A DNA stretch of 64,000 bases. It comes from Dehalococcoidia bacterium (GTDB taxonomy: Bacteria; Chloroflexota; Dehalococcoidia; UBA6926). The notes under the pieces were generated by a model. The model made no database searches and was not told the DNA's origin. It worked only from the letters and a program-made list of their open reading frames with translations. The stretch is from positions 288,001 through 352,000 of the forward strand of contig CAXXET010000006.1 of NCBI GenBank assembly GCA_963666115.2, read 5' to 3'. Both the position numbers and the translations under genes were made by a program. Below, one piece after another: positions 1-52,528 of this stretch (positions within the stretch are counted from its first letter, which is position 1; each line of letters starts with the position of its first letter).

Positions 1-554
1 GGCAGGTCATTTGGCGATACGCGCGACGTGTTGTAGACGATGACGCGCGCCCGCCCGGAGAGGCCGATCCACTTGCCGTCCGGCGAACGGAAGTTGGCGG
101 GCACCAAGTTCAGCACGTTGTTCGGCAGCGTCGCAAACATCGACTCCACCGCCGCGAGCCCGCCCGGGTCCTGCGCGAAGAAGATGTCCGCGGGTGAATT
201 GGCGCCCTCTTCGAGGATGGTGGCGGCGACTTCGGACGTGCTGCCGTACTTGACGCTAACGTCGATGCCGGTTGCCTCCGAGAACTGCGCGATGATGGGG
301 CCGACGAGGCTTTCGCTGCGGCCCGAATAGACCACAAGCTCGCCCGGGTCGGCCTCTTCAACAATCACGACGGGTGTCGCGGTTGGACCGGCAGGCATTG
401 ATGCCGGCGTGTTTGTTGGGGCAGGGCGCGGCGTTGACGTTGCCACCGGGGCGGTTGTGGGCCGGGGAGTGGCCGTGGGATCAGGTTCGCTTTCGCACCC
501 CGCCGCCGCAATCAAAACCAGGACTCCAATGAGCCCAATCAGTAACCGAAACAT
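1..554 (-). CDS. Fe(III)-type ABC transporter substrate-binding lipoprotein (AfuA/FutA-like), runs off the window start
   Basis: Manual translation from ATG at 554 (RBS GGAGG): MFRLLIGLIGVLVLIAAAGC lipobox, Pro/Thr linker, then LVVYSGRSESLVGPIIAQF...SPADIFFAQD...GKWIGLSGRARVIVYN. Absent from the ORF track because it has no stop in the window. Confidence 0.8.
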   Translation of the reverse strand, partial: MFRLLIGLIGVLVLIAAAGCESEPDPTATPRPTTAPVATSTPRPAPTNTPASMPAGPTATPVVIVEEADPGELVVYSGRSESLVGPIIAQFSEATGIDVSVKYGSTSEVAATILEEGANSPADIFFAQDPGGLAAVESMFATLPNNVLNLVPANFRSPDGKWIGLSGRARVIVYNTSRVSPNDL

Positions 555-41496: not shown

Positions 41497-42366
41497 ATGC
41501 CTGATGGGGAGAGCGTCGCGACATACCGAGCATTGAGCCTGGGTGCCGGAGTCCAAAGCTCGGTGCTTGCTTTGTTACTATCGCGCGGCGACCAGCGGCT
41601 TGTCGATGCAGGCTATCCGAAACCAGATTTGGCGGTGTTTGCTGATACCGGGTGGGAACCGGACTACGTCTATGAGCATCTGGACTGGTTGGAAACGCAG
41701 CTTGATTTTGAACTCATCCGGGTGAGCGACGGCAATCTCAGGGAGAATTTGAGGCGTGCCAAGACGGTAACCGGGCATGACTTTGTCGACGTTCCGATGT
41801 TCGTGACGAATCCCGATGGCGGGGCAGGTATTCTCCGTCGCCAATGCACGAATCACTACAAGATCCGGCCGATCCATCGGGCAGTGAGGGAACGGGCTGG
41901 AGGAAAGCGCGGACGCCCGTTCCCGAAAAACACCCACGCCGAGATGTGGCTTGGAATCTCAACGGATGAGATTGTGCGAATGAAGCCGAGCCGTGAACCA
42001 TGGACGGTGCATCGATGGCCGCTAATCGACATCGGTATGTCGCGCCAGGACTGCCTCGACTGGTTTGAGAGTGAATACCCTGACCGGCATCTGCCCAGGT
42101 CGGCCTGTGTCATCTGCCCCTATCGCTCTGACGCCCATTGGCAGGAGATGCGCGAGTACGAGCCCGAGAGCTTTGACGAGGCGGTCGCATTTGACAGGTG
42201 GCTGCGAAAGTCGTCAAAGAACCCGGTGCGGCAAGTGCTTGCGGGTCGCCCGTATCTGCATAGGACGCGCAGACCCCTTGGTAGCGCAGTTGAGGGTCTT
42301 GCGAGCGGCACACTTGTTGATGATGGGCTGTTTGAGGATGAATGTGAAGGTCACTGTGGCGTCTGA
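41497..42366 (+). CDS. PP-loop (adenine nucleotide alpha-hydrolase) / PAPS-reductase-like protein
   Basis: LSLGAGVQSS, FADTGWE, RQCT, WLGISTDE, RSACVICPY, C-terminal ECEGHC. Confidence 0.8.
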   Translation: MPDGESVATYRALSLGAGVQSSVLALLLSRGDQRLVDAGYPKPDLAVFADTGWEPDYVYEHLDWLETQLDFELIRVSDGNLRENLRRAKTVTGHDFVDVPMFVTNPDGGAGILRRQCTNHYKIRPIHRAVRERAGGKRGRPFPKNTHAEMWLGISTDEIVRMKPSREPWTVHRWPLIDIGMSRQDCLDWFESEYPDRHLPRSACVICPYRSDAHWQEMREYEPESFDEAVAFDRWLRKSSKNPVRQVLAGRPYLHRTRRPLGSAVEGLASGTLVDDGLFEDECEGHCGV

Positions 42367-43591
42367 AAGTTCTACTATCCAGGCCCTTTATGGCCTTCAT
42401 CCTTATCAGCGCCAAGTTTTGGGCGATATAGTCGCGGCGCTTGCAGAGCCCGAGGGCCGGGTTGTTGCTCACCTACCTACTGGTGCTGGCAAGACCAGAA
42501 TTGCTAGCCACGTTGCGGGGCACATGCTCAACAGCAGTTCTGGAGATAGTGCCCTAGTTATCTGGCTTGCGTCCACCGAGGAACTATGTGACCAGGCCGC
42601 TGAAACACTCGAACGCGCCTGGCAGCATGTGGGCCAGAGAAACGTAACAATGAATCGGTTTTGGGGTGGACATCGAATCGATTTGCGACAGATTGAAGGT
42701 GGCTTTCTGGTTGCCGGGCTGGCGAAACTCTGGGCAGTTGCCAGCCAGGACAATACCTGGAGTCCTCATCTCGCACAAAGAACTGCGGGAGTGATCTTTG
42801 ATGAGGCTCACCAGGCAGTGGCGAGAACCTATTCATATTTGACGGAACAACTCATTGGATCAAGGACCCCGTTGCTTGGACTGACCGCAACTCCTGGCCG
42901 TAAAGCGTCCTTGAGTGATGAGGATTATGCCTTAGCGGAGATGTTTGCTCACAAGAAAGTGTCGATCGATCCCAAAGGGCACGTTAGCCCGGTTACGTAC
43001 CTGATTGCGAACGGATACCTTGCCGACCCTCGCTTTGTCACGAGGGCATTCACCGGCCAGCAGCGCGATTCACTTCGAACGAATAACGGCGATTATGCTC
43101 AGGAACTGCTCGACGAATTGGGGAGGGATCGAGAGCGCAACCAGAATATTGTAGATTGGACAGCAGACGCAGCGACTAGGCACAAGCGGATCATTGTATT
43201 CTGTCCTTCGGTCGAAAGTGTCCAGCAATGTGGGCAGCAGTTGGAGTTAAGGGGCCTCCAAGCAAACGGGATTACAGCAACGACTCCCCAAGATGTCCGC
43301 TCTGAGATTATTCGCAAATATCGCGAGACCTCGTCCACCCCCAGGATAATCTTGAATTATGGTGTCCTCACTGCGGGCTTCGACGCGCCACAGACTTCAT
43401 GCGCAATCATTGCGCGCCCGACTCAATCGCTGGTACTATATTCTCAGATGGTAGGTCGTGCGCTGCGGGGTCCGCGCGTTGGGGGAAATAGGTGGGCCGA
43501 AATACTCACCGTTGTCGACATGGACTTACCGGGGTTCGACTCTGTTACTGACGCATTTAGGAATTGGGAGGAGCTATGGCAGGAGAACTGA
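42356..43591 (+). CDS. SF2 DEAH/ResIII-like helicase
   Basis: LHPYQ, PTGAGKT, DEAH, GLTATPGR, LTAGFDAP, QMVGRALRG; start is GTG 42356 or ATG 42338. Confidence 0.92.
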   Translation: MASESSTIQALYGLHPYQRQVLGDIVAALAEPEGRVVAHLPTGAGKTRIASHVAGHMLNSSSGDSALVIWLASTEELCDQAAETLERAWQHVGQRNVTMNRFWGGHRIDLRQIEGGFLVAGLAKLWAVASQDNTWSPHLAQRTAGVIFDEAHQAVARTYSYLTEQLIGSRTPLLGLTATPGRKASLSDEDYALAEMFAHKKVSIDPKGHVSPVTYLIANGYLADPRFVTRAFTGQQRDSLRTNNGDYAQELLDELGRDRERNQNIVDWTADAATRHKRIIVFCPSVESVQQCGQQLELRGLQANGITATTPQDVRSEIIRKYRETSSTPRIILNYGVLTAGFDAPQTSCAIIARPTQSLVLYSQMVGRALRGPRVGGNRWAEILTVVDMDLPGFDSVTDAFRNWEELWQEN

Positions 43592-45456
43592 CGCCTGACG
43601 AGAGGGAAGAATTCTCGATCCTTACTCCAGAAAGGCTTGTGGAGGCCCTGCGGGATACCAGATACAACAGCACCGCACATGCTATCGCTGAACTTGTCGA
43701 TAATTCTATCGAGGCCAATGCGCGAGAGATTAGCCTGCTTTGCGCAGAGGAATACGAGATGGTTGTCGAGCGAAGCAAGCGAAGAGTATCCGAGATAGCT
43801 GTCCTCGATAACGGTGATGGAATGGACCCGGAGACGTTAGCGCAGTCATTGATTTTCGGCGGAGGAACCAAGCACGATAGCCTGCGTGGGATGGGGAAAT
43901 ATGGAATGGGCCTGCCGACAGCATCGCTATCGCAATGCACGAAAGTCGAGATATGGAGTTGGCAGTCAGGTTACGAGAGCGCCTGGCATTCGTGGATTAA
44001 CGTCAAGGAGATAATGGCTGGCCGCCAAACTATTCCGATGCCAGACCAGGAGAAGATTCCGGATCGCTGGCTGCGCGCGGCAAGTACGGATATGTTCGAG
44101 AACCTGCCACTTTCGCACCAAAAATCGGGCACTCTGGTCGTATGGTCAGATCTTGACAAGATGCAGTGGAAAACGAGCAGCGCAATCCTGAGGAATACTG
44201 CGGAGGAGGTCGGACGGATCCATCGGCACTTTATCGCGTCAGGACGTTGCCGCATTCAGACTGTCAGCTTCTCTGCGACCAATCCAGACGACAAGCAAGC
44301 GGACATTGTCGTCCCTAACGACCCTACTTATTTGATGCCGACTACATCCACGCCCACGCCTTGGGGCGAAACTCCAATGTTTAGAGAGTGGACGAGAAAG
44401 CACTACGGCATTGAAGCGGGTGGCAGAGAAAACACAATTGATGTCGTGTACTCGATAGTCAAACCAGAAGCATTGCAAACCGACAGGGTTAGTATACAGC
44501 CGGGCAGACAGCCACACGGTGCACATGCTAGGAAGAACATAGGAGTGTCCGTGGTTCGGGAAGAACGTGAGATTATTCTCGACAAGTCATTCATGAGTGA
44601 GGGCGGCAGTTCTCGCGACCCGCGGCAGCGGTGGTGGGGTTGTGAAGTTAGGTTCGGGCGTGACGCCGACGAGTTTTTCGGGATAGACACCAAAAAGCAG
44701 GCCGTCTGGAAATTCACTAAGGCTGCTCAAGAGCTCGCCAGTGATGATAGACCAATAGCAGTTGTTCTTGATGAAATGGGTGTGGAGAGAGACCCGATTT
44801 ATGAATTGGTTTTCGAAATCAAGAATGAAATTGGAAACCTGATGCGGGAAATCAATAAGATGTTCGGCCAGCGAACGGGCGAATCGACTGAAGACAGGAA
44901 GCACAGCCCAGAGACGAAGGCTGCCGGCAGCATGTCAGAAGCCATAAAGGACGCAATCGAGGCCGGAGAAGAAAAGGAGACGCAGACAGACGAAGACCGG
45001 CGGACAATTCCTCCTGACGAGAGAGAAGAGGCGATCGCACTGGAACTAGAAGAATCGGGGCGGCCTCCCGAGAGAGCCAAAGAGCTTGCAATGGGACTGG
45101 TGCAACAGGAGCAAGGTTTTGTCTTTGATGTTGGACAAGTTTCAGGATACTCCATTTTTGACGTGCGTTCCAGCAAAGGCATATTGCACCTGACTCTGAA
45201 TATGGATCACCCAGTTTACGACTACTTGAACGTTATCGAACAAGATATCCGTGAAAACGCCGACGAGAACAGCCCCGAATTCAAGGCGGCTGTGGCAATT
45301 CGCCTACTATTGCTATGTTGGGCACGCATGGAAGACCAGGCTGCTACTCGCGAGGAGCGGATGCAGATACAGGATATTGCGGCGAAGTGGGGACGTCACG
45401 TTGACCGGGCGGTGAGGCACGCTAGCTCGGAGGACCCGGAGATGCCGACTGGATGA
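43576..45456 (+). CDS. MORC-type GHKL (HATPase_c_3) ATPase
   Basis: AIAELVDNSIEA, DNGDGM, GKYGMGL, SGTLVVW; late LNMDHP motif; RBS GGAGG. Confidence 0.88.
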   Translation: MAGELTPDEREEFSILTPERLVEALRDTRYNSTAHAIAELVDNSIEANAREISLLCAEEYEMVVERSKRRVSEIAVLDNGDGMDPETLAQSLIFGGGTKHDSLRGMGKYGMGLPTASLSQCTKVEIWSWQSGYESAWHSWINVKEIMAGRQTIPMPDQEKIPDRWLRAASTDMFENLPLSHQKSGTLVVWSDLDKMQWKTSSAILRNTAEEVGRIHRHFIASGRCRIQTVSFSATNPDDKQADIVVPNDPTYLMPTTSTPTPWGETPMFREWTRKHYGIEAGGRENTIDVVYSIVKPEALQTDRVSIQPGRQPHGAHARKNIGVSVVREEREIILDKSFMSEGGSSRDPRQRWWGCEVRFGRDADEFFGIDTKKQAVWKFTKAAQELASDDRPIAVVLDEMGVERDPIYELVFEIKNEIGNLMREINKMFGQRTGESTEDRKHSPETKAAGSMSEAIKDAIEAGEEKETQTDEDRRTIPPDEREEAIALELEESGRPPERAKELAMGLVQQEQGFVFDVGQVSGYSIFDVRSSKGILHLTLNMDHPVYDYLNVIEQDIRENADENSPEFKAAVAIRLLLLCWARMEDQAATREERMQIQDIAAKWGRHVDRAVRHASSEDPEMPTG

Positions 45457-46304
45457 TTGTCTCAGAAAGTACCGGCTTCAGTGTTCCTCCTCAGAATGCC
45501 GTCTTTATTGCCGCTCCATACATAAGGGCTGCCGCTCTGACTCGGTTCCTTGCGAATGTGCCCTCTGTGCCAGAGTTGACCTGTGTTACTCGCTGGCAAC
45601 CTAAGGATCTGGCGCTTGGTGTATCAGAGGTGGAGTGTCGACGGATCATCCTTAACAGGGGAGGCCATTTCCTGCTGCACCCAACGTTGCACGCCAAGTA
45701 TTATCGATTTGATGATGAGATTCTGATTGGCTCGGCCAATTTGACGATGTCGGGTATGGGCTGGTCATGGAGATCGAATCTGGAGATACTGGCACCGCCC
45801 TCAGACGCATTTGACTACCTAGCATTCGAGTCGGAACTCTTAGCGAGAGCCAGACCGATTTCCGACGTCGAATTCGAGCAATGGGCGTCTATCCAAGATC
45901 TCGGAACAGAGGCTGTGGGTTCGACGCCACAGTTCGCTCAAGCACCTGATTGGCGACCGGTTACTCGCGAATTTGAGAATTTCTCCAGAGCCTACTACGG
46001 CCGGTTACGCGAGATACCTTCAATTGATGAGGCGCGACGGGCCCAAAGCGATATTGTGACTTTGCAGTTGCCGCCCAACCAAGTGCCTGAATCACTGCGC
46101 AGACTGGTGACTACAGCCCTCTTGGCGTCTCCCTACGCGTCGGATGTCCTGCGCGTTCAGCATATGGACGCGGTGGATGCTGCTCGTGAGTTGGCTACGT
46201 TGTATGACCTGCCGTTACACTTGGCGCGGCGCGACATGGAAACCGTCCATAATTGGCTGAGAGAATTAGCCCCGGAACTGCTACCATCATCGGAGGATCA
46301 GTAG
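45453..46304 (+). CDS. Phospholipase D (single HKD) nuclease-like protein
   Basis: AAPYI, LHAKYYRFD, IGSANLT, NLE; ATGA overlap with the ATPase gene. Confidence 0.87.
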   Translation: MIVSESTGFSVPPQNAVFIAAPYIRAAALTRFLANVPSVPELTCVTRWQPKDLALGVSEVECRRIILNRGGHFLLHPTLHAKYYRFDDEILIGSANLTMSGMGWSWRSNLEILAPPSDAFDYLAFESELLARARPISDVEFEQWASIQDLGTEAVGSTPQFAQAPDWRPVTREFENFSRAYYGRLREIPSIDEARRAQSDIVTLQLPPNQVPESLRRLVTTALLASPYASDVLRVQHMDAVDAARELATLYDLPLHLARRDMETVHNWLRELAPELLPSSEDQ

Positions 46305-48593: not shown

Positions 48594-49751
48594 ATGAGCC
48601 TTCGCGGTGAAGCGGCGATCATCGGAATCGGCGAGTTGCCCACGACCCGCGCCACTTTTGGCCGCTCCATGGTCGGCCTCATGGGCGACGTGGCCCGCAT
48701 CGCCATCCATGACGCGCACGTGCGCTTCGACGATATTGACGGGCTTGTGACGGAGGGCGGGAATGTGTCTCCGGCCTTCGCGTCCGAGTACCTTGGCATC
48801 CAGCCGCGGTTCGCTTCCGGCGCGAGCATGATGGGCGCAAGCGGCGCGACGGGCGTCACTCTCGCCTCCATGGCCGTGCAGAACGGCCTCGCCAATTATG
48901 TGCTCGTCGTCATTGCTACTGCGCGCAACCCCGCCATCCCGCCGGAGGGCGGCGGGCCTCCCAGCGCGCGGTCGGAGTTTGAGGACCCGTACGGCATGGC
49001 CGCCGGCGCCAACACGGGTTACGGCATGATGTACGTCAGGCACATGGAAGAATACGGCACCACCGAAGAGCAGATGGCGCAGATGGCCGTCAACGAGCGG
49101 TTCAACACGCTGGAGAATCCAAACTCCGTCTTCAAGGGGCAGCCCATCACGCATGACGACGTGATGAATTCCCGCTTTATCAACTATCCCATCAAGCTGC
49201 TTGAAACCGTGATGCCGTGCGCCGGCGCGGCGGCTGTCGTGGTGACGAGCGCGGAGCGCGCCAGGCACAGCCTGAACCGGCCTGTCTACGTGCTCGGCGC
49301 AGGCGTGGCGACCGATCCGCTCATGGGCTGGATGCGCGACAAGCTGACCGAGACGCCCGTTGCGCGGTCTGCCCCCACCGCGATCACGATGTCCGGCTAC
49401 ACGCCGCGCGACATGCAGTTCGCCCAATTCTACGATTGATACACCATCCTCCATGCCGTGAGCCTGGAAGATGCGGGACTGATGCCCAAGGGCGAGGTTG
49501 GGGCCTTCTTTGAATCGACGGACACCCGCTACAACGGCGAGTTCCCCATCAACACGGACGGCGGCCAGCTCTCCAGCGGCCAGCCGGGTCTCGCCGGCGG
49601 ATTCCGCCACGTCGTTGAGGGCGCGCGCCAGATCATGGGCAAGGCGGGCGTCCGGCAGATTGCCCGCAATGACCTCGGTCTGGTGAATGGTTGAGGCGGC
49701 ACCGCGAGCACCATGTGCACGCTGGTTCTCGGGTCCGAGAACGCACTCTAG
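48594..49751 (+). CDS. Thiolase-like (SCP2/Ltp2-type) protein with two in-frame TGA codons, putative selenoprotein
   Basis: 1158 nt, same length as paralog 50356-51513; TGA at codon 282 (FYD*YT) and codon 367 (VNG*GG); continuous frame to TAG after LGSENAL. Confidence 0.75.
49445..49473 (+). promoter_or_regulatory. Candidate SECIS hairpin after the first TGA
   Basis: CATCCTCCA-T-GC-[CGTGA]-GC-C-TGGAAGATG; loop starts 17 nt after the TGA. Confidence 0.45.
49701..49726 (+). promoter_or_regulatory. Candidate SECIS hairpin after the second TGA
   Basis: ACC-GCG-A-GCAC-[CAT]-GTGC-A-CGC-T-GGT; loop starts 17 nt after the TGA. Confidence 0.45.
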
Positions 49752-49795: not shown

Positions 49796-50314
49796 ATGAC
49801 GAGCGAATACAGGAGACCCGTCCCGCGCCCCACGATGAACCCGGAGTTGACCGCGCCGTTCTGGGCAGGGACGAAACGCCATGAACTCTGGCTCCAGAAC
49901 TGCAAGCCCTGCGGCAAGTTCATCTTCTACCCGCGCGAGGCCTGCCCCGAGTGCTGGGCTCACGGCGATGACCTGGTGTGGACGAAGGCGAGCGGCACGG
50001 GCCGCGTCCACTCCTACACCGTCGTCTATCAGCCCGCCCACCCGGCCTTCGGCGAGTTCATGCCCCAGGCGCAGGTTCTCATCGAGCTGGATGAGGGCGT
50101 GCGAATGGTCGGGAACATGGTGGACGTCTCGTCGGAGGAGTTCCGCGCGGACCCCGCCGTGCTCCCGGTCAACCAGCGCGTCGAGGCGGTCTTTGAAGAC
50201 GTGACGCCCGAGTGGACGCTTATCAAGTGGCGGCGCGTTGAGGAGGACCCCGTGCCGGGGTCCGATACGGCACCTACCGAGAACCCGTGGGCGAACGATC
50301 CCAGGTATAACTGA
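49796..50314 (+). CDS. DUF35 Zn-ribbon/OB-fold protein
   Basis: PFW..ELWLQNCKPCG..YPREACPEC, SGTGRVHSYTVV, IELDEGVRMVGN; RBS GGAG. Confidence 0.92.
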   Translation: MTSEYRRPVPRPTMNPELTAPFWAGTKRHELWLQNCKPCGKFIFYPREACPECWAHGDDLVWTKASGTGRVHSYTVVYQPAHPAFGEFMPQAQVLIELDEGVRMVGNMVDVSSEEFRADPAVLPVNQRVEAVFEDVTPEWTLIKWRRVEEDPVPGSDTAPTENPWANDPRYN

Positions 50315-50355: not shown

Positions 50356-51513
50356 GTGAGTTTCCGGGGAAAGGCCGCAATCATCGGTATCGGCGAACTC
50401 CCGTCGCGCCGGACGATTCCCGGCATGAGCACGGCCGGCCTGCTGGCGCAGGCGGCGCGTCTCGCCATCGAGGACGCGCACATCTCCAAGGATGAGGTCG
50501 ACGGGCTGGTTACGGAGGGAGGCTCGGTCTTCCCGGGATTCGCGGCGGAATACCTTGGCATCCGCCCCCGATTCGGCACCGGCGTTTCCATGATGGGGGC
50601 GAGCGGCGCGACCGCCGTCCTGCTTGCCGCGATGGCCGTCCAGAACGGCCTCGCAAGCAACGTCCTCGTCGTCATGGGGCAGGCGCGCAACCCTGCAATC
50701 GCCGCCGAGGGCGAGGGGGGCGCGAACCCAGCGACGGAGTTCGATTTCCCGTATGGGCCCGCCGCCGGCGCGAATTCCGGCTACGCACAGGTCTACAAGC
50801 GCCACATGGACCGGTACGGCACCACGCAGGAACAGATGGCGCGCGTGGCGGTAAATGAACGCGCCAACGCGCAGGGCAACGAGAATGCCGTGTTCAACGG
50901 CCAGCCGATCACCTATGACGACGTCATCGGCTCGCGGTACGTGAATTATCCGCTGCGGCTGCTGGAGTGCGTGATGCCGTGCGCGGGCGCGGCGGCGCTC
51001 ATCGTCACGACCGCCGAGAGGGCGAAGGCCGGGTTGAACAGGCCCGCGTACATGCTTGGCGGGGGGACAGCGGTGGACGGCCTCAGCGGGATGATGCGGC
51101 CGGAGCTGACCGTCACGCCGGTTGCCCGCTCTGCCCCAACCGCGTTCGCCATGTCCGGCTACGCCCCGAAAGACGTGCAGTTCGCCCAATTCTATGACGC
51201 TTACACCATCATCCACGCCGTGAGCCTGGAGGACGCGGGAATCGTGCCGAAGGGCGAGATCGGGCCGTTCTTTGCGGAGACCGACACCACCTACAACGGC
51301 ACGTTCCCGATCAATACGGACGGCGGCCAGTTGTCCGGCGGGCAGCCGGGTTCGGCAGGCGGCCTCCGCCACGTCGTTGAGGCGGCCCGTCAGATCATGG
51401 GCAAGGCGGGCGTGAGGCAGATCGAGCGGAACGACCTGGGCCTCGTGAATGGCAACGGCGGGATGTCGAGCGTCATGTGCACGCTGGTTCTCGGGTCCGC
51501 GAACGCACTCTAG
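50356..51513 (+). CDS. Thiolase-like (SCP2/Ltp2-type) protein, uninterrupted paralog
   Basis: AAIIGIGE, RHMDRYGTT, FYDAYT, INTDGGQLS, LVNGNGG; RBS AGGAGG. Confidence 0.92.
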   Translation: MSFRGKAAIIGIGELPSRRTIPGMSTAGLLAQAARLAIEDAHISKDEVDGLVTEGGSVFPGFAAEYLGIRPRFGTGVSMMGASGATAVLLAAMAVQNGLASNVLVVMGQARNPAIAAEGEGGANPATEFDFPYGPAAGANSGYAQVYKRHMDRYGTTQEQMARVAVNERANAQGNENAVFNGQPITYDDVIGSRYVNYPLRLLECVMPCAGAAALIVTTAERAKAGLNRPAYMLGGGTAVDGLSGMMRPELTVTPVARSAPTAFAMSGYAPKDVQFAQFYDAYTIIHAVSLEDAGIVPKGEIGPFFAETDTTYNGTFPINTDGGQLSGGQPGSAGGLRHVVEAARQIMGKAGVRQIERNDLGLVNGNGGMSSVMCTLVLGSANAL

Positions 51514-51522
51514 GAGGCAGGC

Positions 51523-51987
51523 ATGACAAGCGAATACACCAAGCCGCTGCCGCACGCCACGCTGAACCCGGAGGTGTCGCGGCCGTTCTGGGAGGGCACG
51601 AAGAAGCACGAGTTGTGGGTGCAGTACTGCGGCGCGTGCAATAAGTTCGTCTTCTTCCCGCGCGAAGTGTGCCCGTACGGCCTGTGCGCCATCGACAAGC
51701 TCGTCTGGACGAAGACCAGGGGCAAGGGCCGCGTCTACTCCTACACGACCGTCTACCAGTCCTCGTTCCCGGCGTTCACAGAGGAAGCCCCCTACATCCA
51801 CGCCACCATCCAGTTGGACGAGGGCCCGCGCATGTCGGGAAACGTCCTCGTGCCGAAGGAGCAACTAGCGGAAGACCCGAGCGCGCTGGCCGTCGGCCAG
51901 CGCGTCGAGGCCGTGTACGACGACGTGACGGATGACGTCACCCTCGTAAAGTGGCAGCCCATCCCGGAAGATGAGCCGCCAGATTAA
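51523..51987 (+). CDS. DUF35 Zn-ribbon/OB-fold protein
   Basis: PFWEG..CGAC..FPREVCP..C, GKGRVYSYT, QLDEGPRM. Confidence 0.92.
   Translation: MTSEYTKPLPHATLNPEVSRPFWEGTKKHELWVQYCGACNKFVFFPREVCPYGLCAIDKLVWTKTRGKGRVYSYTTVYQSSFPAFTEEAPYIHATIQLDEGPRMSGNVLVPKEQLAEDPSALAVGQRVEAVYDDVTDDVTLVKWQPIPEDEPPD

Positions 51988-52452: not shown

Positions 52453-52528
<76 letters not shown>

What the first reader, a model, noticed from the sequence alone, without database searches (positions are those of the whole stretch)
48594..49751. Thiolase-like gene with two in-frame TGA codons at active-site loops: candidate double-selenocysteine enzyme
Seen: the ORF track splits this gene, but it reads in one frame from ATG 48594 to TAG 49749-51 with only two interruptions. 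Both are TGA, at 49437-39 (codon 282, FYD*YTIL) and 49692-94 (codon 367, LVNG*GGT). It is 1158 nt, the same length as the paralog 50356-51513, whose codons 282 and 367 are Ala (FYDAYT) and Asn (VNGNGG). There are no indels or other decay, and similarity to the paralog continues past both TGAs (MCTLVLGSENAL versus MCTLVLGSANAL). Established: codon 282 is the Cys position of the SCP2-thiolase HDCF/YDC motif, and codon 367 lies in the loop carrying the second catalytic Cys of canonical thiolases. Inference: two random nonsense mutations, both TGA and both in catalytic loops, are less parsimonious than Sec recoding. I do not know of thiolases as an established selenoprotein family. Caveats: the paralog has Ala/Asn rather than Cys, and no sel genes are in the window.
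Basis: partly seen in the sequence, partly recalled or inferred. Interest (0 to 1): 0.92.

Follow-up and report, generated by a model that had tools for sequence, protein, structure and literature searches.

The report
Double-selenocysteine thiolase-fold enzyme gene
This gene of an uncultured marine Dehalococcoidia bacterium almost certainly encodes a thiolase-fold enzyme with two selenocysteines in its active site, and public databases list its many relatives as truncated thiolases.

Summary
Window 48594-49751 (+) is one 385-codon frame with two in-frame TGAs, at codons 282 and 367.

The selenocysteine reading is strongly supported.
- The genome has tRNA-Sec, selA, selB and a Sec-containing selD.
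- Both TGAs are kept in the orthologs of 20 other species of the genus and in 12 more distant Dehalococcoidia loci.
- Three further paralog groups carry TGA at codon 367, with Cys or TGA at 282.
- dN/dS downstream of the TGAs is 0.04-0.10.
- Synonymous change is suppressed just after each TGA.
- Hairpins there show compensatory changes.

The protein is not a true thiolase, because Gly81 replaces the nucleophilic Cys. Its closest solved relative is the DUF35-bound retro-aldolase CtSal (9myr). CtSal's catalytic Tyr302/Cys304 align with Tyr280/Sec282, and a DUF35 gene follows directly. Sec367 lies two residues before the oxyanion-hole Gly.

Of the 120 best public protein clusters, 105 end exactly at one of the two TGA positions and are named "thiolase family protein". 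I found no thiolase-type selenoprotein in the texts I could search. Function and selenium incorporation remain untested.

The parts
48594..49751 (+). Gene A: 385-codon thiolase-fold (Sal-like) selenoprotein gene, from ATG to TAG. A GAGGTGG ribosome-binding site lies upstream.
   Evidence: Pfam Thiolase_C_1, 1.5e-42. AF2 model pLDDT 91.3. Best fold match 9myr_A, TM 0.91.
49437..49439 (+). TGA codon 282, read as Sec282 in the Y280-D281-U282-Y283 motif. It aligns with the catalytic Cys304 of CtSal and with the HDCF Cys of SCP2-thiolases.
49446..49472 (+). Candidate SECIS hairpin for Sec282: an 11-pair stem with apical loop CGUGA at 49457-49461. G22 and U23, counted from the U of UGA, are invariant.
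   Evidence: Cells paired are 81% against at most 51% in slid controls. Pair 16-30 is CG 20, GC 11, GU 1. The folding z-score is only -1.08.
49692..49694 (+). TGA codon 367, read as Sec367 in N365-G366-U367-G368-G369. It lies two residues before the Gly that aligns with the oxyanion-hole Gly391 of CtSal.
49704..49722 (+). Candidate SECIS hairpin 1 for Sec367. The loop lies around the conserved AUG codon. The hairpin is kept, with different stem sequences, in the paralog groups (in the C and D groups in a shifted register; only the non-D sequences were counted).
49725..49742 (+). Hairpin 2 after Sec367: a 7-pair stem with a GGUC loop.
   Evidence: 96.9% of cells paired, and pair 36-49 is UA 35, CG 23, UG 4. 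A like hairpin follows the selD TGA. It is absent or weak in one paralog group (L116-118) and is also present in the non-Sec copies of B.
49796..50314 (+). DUF35 partner gene (zinc ribbon plus OB fold, ChsH2 type), directly downstream of gene A.
   Evidence: PF12172 at 6.6e-10 and PF01796 at 2.3e-17.
50356..51513 (+). Paralog B: the same family with Ala282 and Asn367 in this genome. In 13 other species of the genus this gene has TGA at both codons.
51523..51987 (+). Second DUF35 gene, the partner of paralog B.

Best explanation
Both TGAs are read as selenocysteine by the organism's SelA/SelB/SelD/tRNA-Sec system. Each is probably guided by a hairpin (SECIS) in the coding sequence just downstream. 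The product is a 385-residue thiolase-fold protein of the nucleophile-less Sal/Ltp2/SLP branch, and it most likely works as a complex with the DUF35 protein encoded directly downstream. By homology with the bile-acid retro-aldolase CtSal, Tyr280 and Sec282 would form the catalytic base/acid dyad. That dyad would cleave a C-C bond of a beta-hydroxyacyl-CoA and protonate the resulting acyl-CoA enolate. Sec367 sits in the neighbouring active-site loop, next to the oxyanion-hole glycine. SHOWN: the TGAs and their conservation, the Sec machinery, purifying selection downstream, the Cys/Sec exchange at 282, hairpins with compensatory changes, the fold, the alignment to CtSal's catalytic residues, and the DUF35 neighbour. 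INFERRED: selenium is actually inserted, which hairpin is the SECIS, the complex forms, the aldolase chemistry, the substrate, and the role of Sec367.
For: Sec machinery in the genome:
- tRNA-Sec scores 68 bits, above the cut-off, with anticodon tca.
- selA scores 539 bits, selB 330 bits, and selD 387 bits; selD itself holds one TGA.
- The only tRNA with anticodon UCA is tRNA-Sec, and tRNA-Trp is CCA. TGA ends 653 of 1489 long ORFs, so it is an ordinary stop elsewhere.

Conservation of the TGAs:
- Group A has TGA at both codons in 21 of 21 copies. Group B has both in 13 of 20. Groups C (22 of 22) and D (22 of 22) have Cys282 plus TGA367.
- 12 loci at 59-62% identity have both TGAs.
- In a sample of 401 genomes of the class, 42 hold a close homolog. 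By my count of the 96 listed rows, 49 have two TGAs, 40 have one and 7 have none.
- tRNA-Sec is present in 5 of 5 other carrier genomes tested.

Coding constraint:
- dN/dS is 0.059 for codons 1-281, 0.040 for 283-366 and 0.103 for 368-385.
- The tail after TGA367 is homologous to the translated tails of paralog B and of CtSal.
- In the model the tail forms strand 373-380, paired with strand 361-368.

Cys homologs:
- Column 282 is Cys in 64 of 150 representatives and in 106 of the 111 best clusters that reach it.
- Column 367 is Cys in P0028 and P0309 only.

RNA signals:
- Synonymous diversity at codons 283-297 is 0.148 (A) and 0.132 (B with Sec). It is 0.331 in B without Sec and 0.466 in C, which has Cys.
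- The windows after TGA367 are among the lowest of the gene in A, B-Sec, C and D (ranks 7/371, 4/371, 2/371 and 7/374).
- The hairpins show compensatory pairs, and selD has a similar two-hairpin layout.

Family:
- The best PDB match by sequence is 9myr_A at 3.9e-76. By fold it is 9myr_A at TM 0.91, followed by 4u4e and 6ok1.
- CtSal residues Tyr302, Cys304, Gly89, Gln347, Gln352 and Gly391 align with Y280, U282, G81, Q325, Q330 and G369.
- A DUF35 gene follows the gene.
Against: - No direct evidence of selenium or of the full-length protein exists.
- The folding energies of the hairpins are not better than shuffles: z is -1.08 and -0.19. No Rfam family matches.
- Column 367 is mostly Asn, Thr or Val in homologs, and Cys is rare there. 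That is unusual for a Sec site.
- Low synonymous diversity near the 3' end is also seen in the non-Sec copies of B (rank 18/371). After codon 282 it is also seen in the Cys-bearing group D (rank 22/374). That signal is therefore not specific.
- CtSal's oxyanion residue Gln161 aligns with Ala139.
- No hydratase gene is adjacent to gene A, and paralog D has no DUF35 neighbour.
- hhalign places the CxG cysteine of the genome's own canonical thiolase five residues upstream of U367.
- The joint loss of both Sec residues in B is a single evolutionary event.
Confidence: 0.85

Rival explanations
1. Only the first TGA (282) is Sec. TGA-367 is the real stop, as gene callers assume for groups C and D. 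On this view, the conserved sequence behind it is an RNA element, such as a regulatory hairpin or a translational-coupling signal for the DUF35 gene, and is not coding.
For: 96 of the 120 best public clusters are annotated as ending at column 366. Column 367 seldom aligns with Cys. The stretch after it has very low dS and strong hairpins, and those hairpins are also present in the non-Sec copies of B.
Against: The 18-21 codons after TGA-367 stay in frame and free of stops in paralogs that have diverged to 43% identity, and they always end in TAG or TAA. They are homologous to the translated C-terminal strand of paralog B, CtSal and other homologs. The model needs strand 373-380 to pair with strand 361-368. 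dN/dS there is 0.07-0.30. The TGA is invariant in every copy of A, C and D, although TAA or TAG would serve equally well as a stop.
Confidence: 0.04
2. The TGAs are read through, but as a standard amino acid such as Trp or Cys by near-cognate decoding, and not as selenocysteine.
For: No selenium measurement exists. The thermodynamic support for a SECIS is weak.
Against: A complete Sec system is present in this genome and in 5 of 5 other carriers tested. No suppressor tRNA is present, and TGA is the commonest stop of long ORFs. The TGA alternates with Cys codons at 282 among close relatives, which is the classical Sec/Cys pattern. Conserved hairpins follow each TGA, as in the genome's own selD.
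Confidence: 0.04
3. The gene is a pseudogene with two nonsense mutations, or the TGAs are assembly errors.
For: Gene callers split the gene. The neighbouring paralog B is intact with sense codons.
Against: The same two TGAs occur in 21 of 21 orthologs and in distant lineages. There are no other stops or indels. dN/dS is 0.04-0.10 downstream. Independent contigs agree.
Confidence: 0.01

Closest known systems
CtSal, steroid (bile-acid) side-chain retro-aldolase of Comamonas testosteroni bound to the DUF35 domain of Shy (PDB 9myr; PMC12329534: abstract and sections 9 and 11 read)
   Same: It is the best match by sequence (3.9e-76) and by fold (TM 0.91, 37% identity). Gly sits at the place of the thiolase nucleophile. 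The YDCY motif is shared: catalytic Tyr302 aligns with Y280 and Cys304 with position 282. Gln347, Gln352 and Gly391 are conserved. A DUF35 partner is present.
   Different: Sec replaces Cys304. A second Sec stands where CtSal has Thr389. Gln161 aligns with Ala139. The DUF35 partner is a free-standing small protein and is not the tail of a hydratase. No steroid-degradation genes lie around the gene. The substrate is unknown.
Ltp2-ChsH2(DUF35) aldolase of Thermomonospora curvata (PDB 6ok1)
   Same: It has a thiolase fold without the nucleophilic Cys, a DUF35 partner, and the Tyr of the YDxF motif.
   Different: Ltp2 uses Tyr294 and Tyr344 and has His where this protein has Sec282 (PMC12329534, section 9). 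Sequence identity is about 30%.
SCP2-thiolases (HDCF motif) and classical thiolases (CxS, NEAF, GHP, CxG motifs)
   Same: The fold is shared. Position 282 is the HDCF cysteine position. Position 367 lies in the loop that carries the CxG cysteine. A structure-based alignment in PMC3406046 equates CXG with NGG in a thiolase-like protein (passages read).
   Different: There is no nucleophilic Cys (Gly81), and Gln replaces the His of GHP. The protein therefore cannot perform classical thiolysis. The exact equivalence of U367 with Cys378 was not confirmed.
Known bacterial selenoprotein genes, such as fdhF and selD, with an in-frame UGA and a SECIS hairpin directly downstream
   Same: Shared features are the in-frame UGA, Cys homologs, a hairpin starting about 10 nt after the UGA with GU in the loop about 22 nt downstream, and dependence on selA, selB, selD and tRNA-Sec. 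The positions G23/U24 and the GGUC loop of E. coli fdhF are recalled and not taken from any call.
   Different: The host family is new, there are two Sec residues each with its own hairpin, and the enzyme class is not an obvious oxidoreductase.
'Selenium-containing thiolase' of Clostridium kluyveri (Hartmanis and Stadtman, 1982; recalled, not seen in any call)
   Same: It is a thiolase-family protein reported to contain selenium.
   Different: As I recall, that selenium was non-specific selenomethionine and not UGA-encoded selenocysteine.

Membership tests
Bacterial selenoprotein gene (UGA-Sec recoding) | In-frame UGA conserved among orthologs, with the coding frame continuing behind it | tested here: met
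   dN/dS downstream is 0.04-0.10.
Bacterial selenoprotein gene (UGA-Sec recoding) | tRNA-Sec, SelA, SelB and SelD in the same genome | tested here: met
   tRNA-Sec is also present in 5 of 5 other carrier genomes.
Bacterial selenoprotein gene (UGA-Sec recoding) | Homologs with Cys at the UGA position | tested here: met
   Codon 282 aligns with Cys in paralog groups C and D and in 64 of 150 representatives. Codon 367 has only two Cys homologs (P0028, P0309) and otherwise aligns with Asn, Thr or Val. The feature is therefore met for 282 and only weakly met for 367.
Bacterial selenoprotein gene (UGA-Sec recoding) | SECIS stem-loop directly downstream of the UGA | tested here: inconclusive
   Hairpins lie at the expected distance and show compensatory changes and suppressed synonymous change. 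However, the folding z-scores are -1.08 and -0.19, Rfam gives no match, and it is not settled which of the two hairpins after codon 367 acts as the SECIS.
Bacterial selenoprotein gene (UGA-Sec recoding) | Selenium shown in the protein (75Se labelling or mass spectrometry) | not testable with these tools
   None. RNA-library contigs of relatives cover the 3' part of the gene, which is a weak hint of transcription only.
Thiolase superfamily (fold) | Two-domain thiolase fold; Pfam thiolase C-terminal domain | tested here: met
   PF22691 at 1.5e-42. Model pLDDT 91.3. 1039 PDB matches at E <= 0.001, and the listed top matches (to rank 50) are all thiolase-fold proteins.
Classical thiolase (acetyl-CoA acetyltransferase / 3-ketoacyl-CoA thiolase) | Nucleophilic Cys of the CxS motif | tested here: not met
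   Gly81 stands at this place, aligned with Gly89 of CtSal. Every NCBIfam thiolase model scores below its cut-off.
Classical thiolase (acetyl-CoA acetyltransferase / 3-ketoacyl-CoA thiolase) | His of the GHP motif | tested here: not met
   G323-G324-Q325 stands in its place.
Sal-type thiolase-fold retro-aldolase | Catalytic Tyr and Cys of the YDCY motif | tested here: met
   Y280 is present and position 282 is Sec, the selenium analogue of Cys. Whether Sec serves the same role is inferred.
Sal-type thiolase-fold retro-aldolase | DUF35 partner | tested here: met
   A DUF35 gene lies at 49796-50314. Binding was not tested.
Sal-type thiolase-fold retro-aldolase | Oxyanion hole formed by Gln161 and Gly391 | tested here: inconclusive
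   Gly391 aligns with G369, but Gln161 aligns with Ala139.
Sal-type thiolase-fold retro-aldolase | Retro-aldol activity on a beta-hydroxyacyl-CoA, with a hydratase partner | not testable with these tools
   No hydratase gene lies next to gene A. A crotonase-type hydratase gene lies near paralog C.

The most novel reading that the evidence does not exclude
This would be the first selenoenzyme family of the thiolase superfamily. In it, a Sec(Cys)282-Sec367 pair in the C-terminal domain has taken over the active site that lost its N-domain cysteine. The pair would act either as a selenium nucleophile plus acid/base, giving acyl-selenoester chemistry (a 'seleno-thiolase' or acyltransferase), or as a redox-active diselenide or selenenylsulfide. 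It would then not merely be a faster proton donor in a Sal-type aldolase. The family is abundant in marine, sponge-associated and freshwater Dehalococcoidia (SAR202-like), and public databases mask it as truncated 'thiolase family proteins'.
Probability: 0.2. Interest if true: 0.9.

Novelty: new variant of a known kind. Interest (0 to 1): 0.8.

Why it matters
Almost all known selenoenzymes are oxidoreductases. A selenocysteine at the general-acid position of a C-C-cleaving thiolase-fold enzyme, with a second one in the adjoining loop, would widen the chemistry for which nature uses selenium. It would also give enzymologists a natural Cys/Sec series (U/U, C/U, C/N and A/N forms among close paralogs) for measuring what selenium contributes.

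The family is large. Of the 120 best public protein clusters, 105 end exactly at one of the two TGA positions. They are named thiolase or acetyl-CoA acetyltransferase. Metabolic reconstructions of marine Dehalococcoidia, a group discussed for the breakdown of recalcitrant organic matter, therefore carry a systematic annotation error. It also means a trace-element (selenium) dependence of part of their acyl-CoA metabolism has been overlooked.

Tried and rejected
Folding energy as a SECIS test. Single-sequence MFE z-scores were -1.08 and -0.19, which is not significant in this G+C-rich gene. I therefore relied on comparative signals.

Rfam. The scan found no SECIS family. The only match was a chance-level serC-leader hit with E 0.47.

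Profile alignment to a canonical thiolase. I aligned the family to the genome's own canonical thiolase (P0153) to fix the equivalence of U367 with the CxG cysteine. The alignment is weak at the C-terminus and puts that Cys five residues upstream. I therefore call the equivalence inferred. The inference rests on Gly391 of CtSal and on the CXG/NGG correspondence in PMC3406046.

tRNA-Sec as a discriminator. 5 of 5 carrier genomes have it, but so do 3 of 5 genomes whose homologs lack TGA. Its presence is necessary but not specific.

Reads. All four runs laid were contigs. Parts of the gene without cover in X1, X22 and X23 mean nothing. RNA-library contigs covering TGA-367 come from relatives and may include DNA. 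Small-share runs were not used to name a habitat.

Genomic context as a guide to substrate. Gene A's neighbours are a Na+/H+ exchanger, a glyoxalase-fold protein and a tRNA. Paralog D's neighbours are unrelated. Only paralog C has a crotonase and MFS transporters nearby. No substrate can be named.

Literature. Two full-text searches were run: 'selenoprotein + thiolase + selenocysteine' and selenoproteome terms. 'Find' for thiolase, acetyltransferase, lipid-transfer, acyl-CoA and (in part of the papers) aldolase in the main texts of PMC13188914, PMC12013277, PMC2398784, PMC9312934, PMC5029168 and PMC13326102 gave no thiolase-type selenoprotein. I could not see their supplements, the BSepDB list of 111 families, or the two Haft papers, which are not held. 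The family may be listed in any of these.

Full report
OBSERVATION

Window 48594-49751 (+) translates as one 385-codon frame from ATG to TAG. It has only two internal stops, both TGA: 49437-39 (codon 282, FYD*YT) and 49692-94 (codon 367, VNG*GG). The paralog at 50356-51513 has the same length and reads Ala and Asn at these codons. The window is G000:C6:288001-352000 of a 2.07-Mb genome in 9 contigs, rated 100% complete. Related records are uncultured Dehalococcoidia (Chloroflexota) metagenome-assembled genomes.

IS TGA READ AS SELENOCYSTEINE?

The genome has the full Sec system.
- tRNA-Sec scores 68 bits, above Rfam's cut-off. ARAGORN calls it tRNA-SeC with anticodon tca.
- selA scores 539 bits and selB 330 bits.
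- selD scores 387 bits and itself contains one in-frame TGA.
- TGA is otherwise a normal stop: it ends 653 of 1489 ORFs of at least 300 codons.
- No other tRNA reads UGA, and tRNA-Trp has anticodon CCA.

The same genome holds two more paralogs with an in-frame TGA at the codon-367 position and Cys at 282. C is at C4:246426-247580 (63% identity) and D at C6:411157-412311 (43% identity).

I collected 128 copies from 41 related genomes and aligned them.
- Group A, the orthologs of this gene (89-100% identity among the copies), has TGA at both codons in 21 of 21 copies. That is G000 plus 20 of the 21 other species of the genus. No ortholog was found in G001, which is 90% complete and in 230 contigs.
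- Group B has TGA at both codons in 13 of 20 copies and Ala/Asn in 7, including this genome.
- Groups C (22 of 22) and D (22 of 22) have Cys282 and TGA367.
- Sister genera have mostly Cys282/TGA367, with one U/U copy.
- Rows shorter than 380 residues, which were cut by locus ends, were left out of the group counts.

Wider sampling agrees.
- Twelve more distant loci (59-62% identity) have TGA at both codons. They come from genomes of 2.7-3.8 Mb and from one lake MAG.
- In an even sample of 401 genomes of the class, 42 hold a homolog at E <= 1e-120. By my count of the 96 listed rows, 49 have two TGAs, 40 have one and 7 have none. Those 7 are the B copies just mentioned.
- tRNA-Sec is over the cut-off in 5 of 5 other carriers tested. 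It is also present in 3 of 5 genomes whose homologs have no TGA, so it is necessary but not discriminating.

SELECTION

Among the 21 A orthologs, dN/dS is 0.059 for codons 1-281, 0.040 for 283-366 and 0.103 for 368-385. There is no other stop or indel, and the final stop is always TAG or TAA. The tail behind TGA-367 is homologous to the certainly translated tail of paralog B and to the C-terminal strand of solved homologs. In the AlphaFold model (pLDDT 91.3) residues 373-380 form a strand paired with 361-368. These facts rule out a pseudogene. They also make 'TGA-367 is the real stop' unlikely.

CYS HOMOLOGS

In 150 representatives from a library of 1.84 billion proteins, column 282 is Cys in 64, Ser in 22, Ala in 22 and Asp in 14. 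Column 367 is variable (Asn 26, Thr 16, Val 12 and others), with one Cys, P0028.

Among the 120 best clusters of the 5.8-billion-sequence collection:
- 96 end exactly at column 366;
- 9 end exactly at column 281;
- 3 end elsewhere;
- 12 are full length, of which 11 have Asn and 1 (P0309) has Cys at column 367.

On a tree, Cys and Sec alternate at 282 among close relatives. The seven Ala/Asn copies of B form one clade (support 100/100) nested within the U/U copies, on a long branch. The joint loss of both Sec residues is therefore a single event and should not be over-read.

RNA SIGNALS

Synonymous diversity drops just after each TGA.
- At codons 283-297 it is 0.148 (A) and 0.132 (B with Sec). 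It is 0.331 in B without Sec and 0.466 in C, which has Cys there. Gene means are 0.27-0.43.
- The 15-codon windows after TGA-367 are among the lowest of the whole gene in A, B-Sec, C and D (ranks 7/371, 4/371, 2/371 and 7/374).
- Two caveats apply. Group D (Cys282) is also low after codon 282 (rank 22/374). B without Sec is also low at the 3' end (rank 18/371).

After TGA-282 an 11-pair hairpin (window 49446-49472) is kept in 32 distinct sequences.
- 81% of cells are paired, against 32-51% when the partner is slid.
- Pair 16-30 is CG in 20 sequences, GC in 11 and GU in 1. A His-to-Val or His-to-Glu change on one side is matched by a synonymous Leu change on the other.
- No shuffle in 500 reaches the covariation score.
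- G22 and U23 of the loop are invariant.

After TGA-367 there are two hairpins, at 49704-49722 and 49725-49742 (GGUC loop).
- 85% of cells are paired, against at most 61% when slid.
- Pair 36-49 is UA in 35 sequences, CG in 23 and UG in 4.
- Hairpin 1 is rebuilt with different stems in different paralog groups.

The genome's own selD has a similar two-hairpin layout after its TGA. Against this, single-sequence folding energies are no better than shuffles (z -1.08 and -0.19), and Rfam gives no match. Which hairpin is the SECIS remains open.

WHAT THE PROTEIN IS

Pfam finds only the thiolase C-terminal-like domain. All NCBIfam thiolase models score below their cut-offs, and no selenoprotein-named model matches.

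The best solved relative is 9myr_A (3.9e-76 by sequence; TM 0.91 by fold). The next are 4u4e (a Chloroflexota 'putative thiolase') and 6ok1 (Ltp2-ChsH2 DUF35 aldolase). [quoted passage not shown] According to that paper:
- Tyr302 and Cys304 of the YDCY motif are the catalytic base and acid.
- C304A, C304S and C304H variants are inactive.
- Gly89 stands where SCP2-thiolases have the nucleophilic Cys.
- Gln347 and Gln352 may stabilise the thiolate.
- The oxyanion hole is formed by Gln161 and the backbone of Gly391.

In the alignment these residues correspond to Y280, U282, G81, Q325, Q330, A139 and G369 (positions). Sec282 therefore replaces the essential catalytic cysteine of a Sal-type aldolase. 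Sec367 corresponds to CtSal Thr389, two residues before the oxyanion-hole glycine.

A structure-based alignment in PMC3406046 (passages read) equates the CXG motif (378-380) of the Zoogloea thiolase with an NGG motif in a thiolase-like protein. This fits U367-G-G (N-G-G in paralog B) being the CxG position. However, hhalign against the genome's own canonical thiolase placed that Cys five residues upstream. I therefore treat the equivalence as inferred.

A DUF35 gene (zinc ribbon plus OB fold) follows gene A at 49796-50314, and another follows paralog B. Paralog C also has one, with MFS transporters and a crotonase nearby. Paralog D has none.

MOST LIKELY MECHANISM

SelB and tRNA-Sec insert Sec at both UGAs, guided by the local hairpins. 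The protein pairs with its DUF35 partner. Tyr280 and Sec282 carry out base/acid catalysis of a retro-aldol (or closely related) C-C cleavage of a beta-hydroxyacyl-CoA. The low pKa of a selenol makes Sec282 an effective proton shuttle.

The role of Sec367 is open. It could be a second proton relay, a partner in a Se-Se or Se-S bond with residue 282, or a nucleophile that replaces the lost cysteine. TGA-367 never occurs without Cys or Sec at 282 in the copies I aligned. That fits the two residues acting together, but the coupling rests on related sequences.

KNOWN OR NEW?

Public records call these proteins 'thiolase family protein' or 'acetyl-CoA acetyltransferase' and end them at the TGA. I found no thiolase-type selenoprotein in two full-text searches or in the main texts of six selenoproteome papers and reviews. 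BSepDB reports Dehalococcoidia among the bacteria with the most selenoprotein genes, at 46-49. Its list of 111 families, all supplements and two Haft papers were not visible to me.

The recoding mechanism and the enzyme fold are both known. Their combination, with two Sec residues in the catalytic loops of a non-redox enzyme family, appears to be undescribed.

VERDICT

Selenocysteine recoding is very likely (about 0.9) at both codons. Assignment to the Sal-like, DUF35-dependent branch is well supported, while the chemistry and substrate are inferred. The finding is interesting for selenium biology, for thiolase enzymology and for the annotation of marine Dehalococcoidia.

Noticed in passing
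G000:C6:420976-421899 (outside the window): The genome's selD is itself a selenoprotein gene, with one in-frame TGA in the N-terminal ...CAG*AAK... motif. Two hairpins follow the TGA, at +13..27 and +29..47 (loop GUC).
   Followed up: partly
window 50356-51513: Paralog B has lost both Sec codons (Ala282, Asn367) in one clade of seven species, on a long branch. In 13 other species of the genus it keeps TGA at both codons. This gives a natural U/U versus A/N pair for experiments.
   Followed up: yes
G000:C4:246426-247580 (L162) and G000:C6:411157-412311 (L163): Two further Sec-containing paralogs (Cys282/Sec367) lie elsewhere in the genome. The first is followed by a DUF35 gene and an MFS transporter, with a crotonase-type enoyl-CoA hydratase nearby. 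The second stands alone beside a Na+/Ca2+ exchanger gene.
   Followed up: partly
window 42065-46304: Three consecutive + strand genes encode a ResIII/DEAD-type helicase, a GHKL (HATPase_c_3) ATPase and a weak PLD-like nuclease. The arrangement resembles a defence or restriction-like module.
   Followed up: no
public protein clusters P0200-P0319: Of the 120 closest public protein clusters, 105 end exactly at one of the two TGA positions. They are named thiolase family protein or acetyl-CoA acetyltransferase, which is a systematic truncation in annotation.
   Followed up: yes
window 52453-52528: A tRNA-Ala (cgc) gene lies just downstream of the second DUF35 gene.
   Followed up: no
L163:12641-13248 and L163:1705-2682: A HigB-like toxin gene with an HTH antitoxin gene, and a DDE transposase gene, lie near paralog D.
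   Followed up: no
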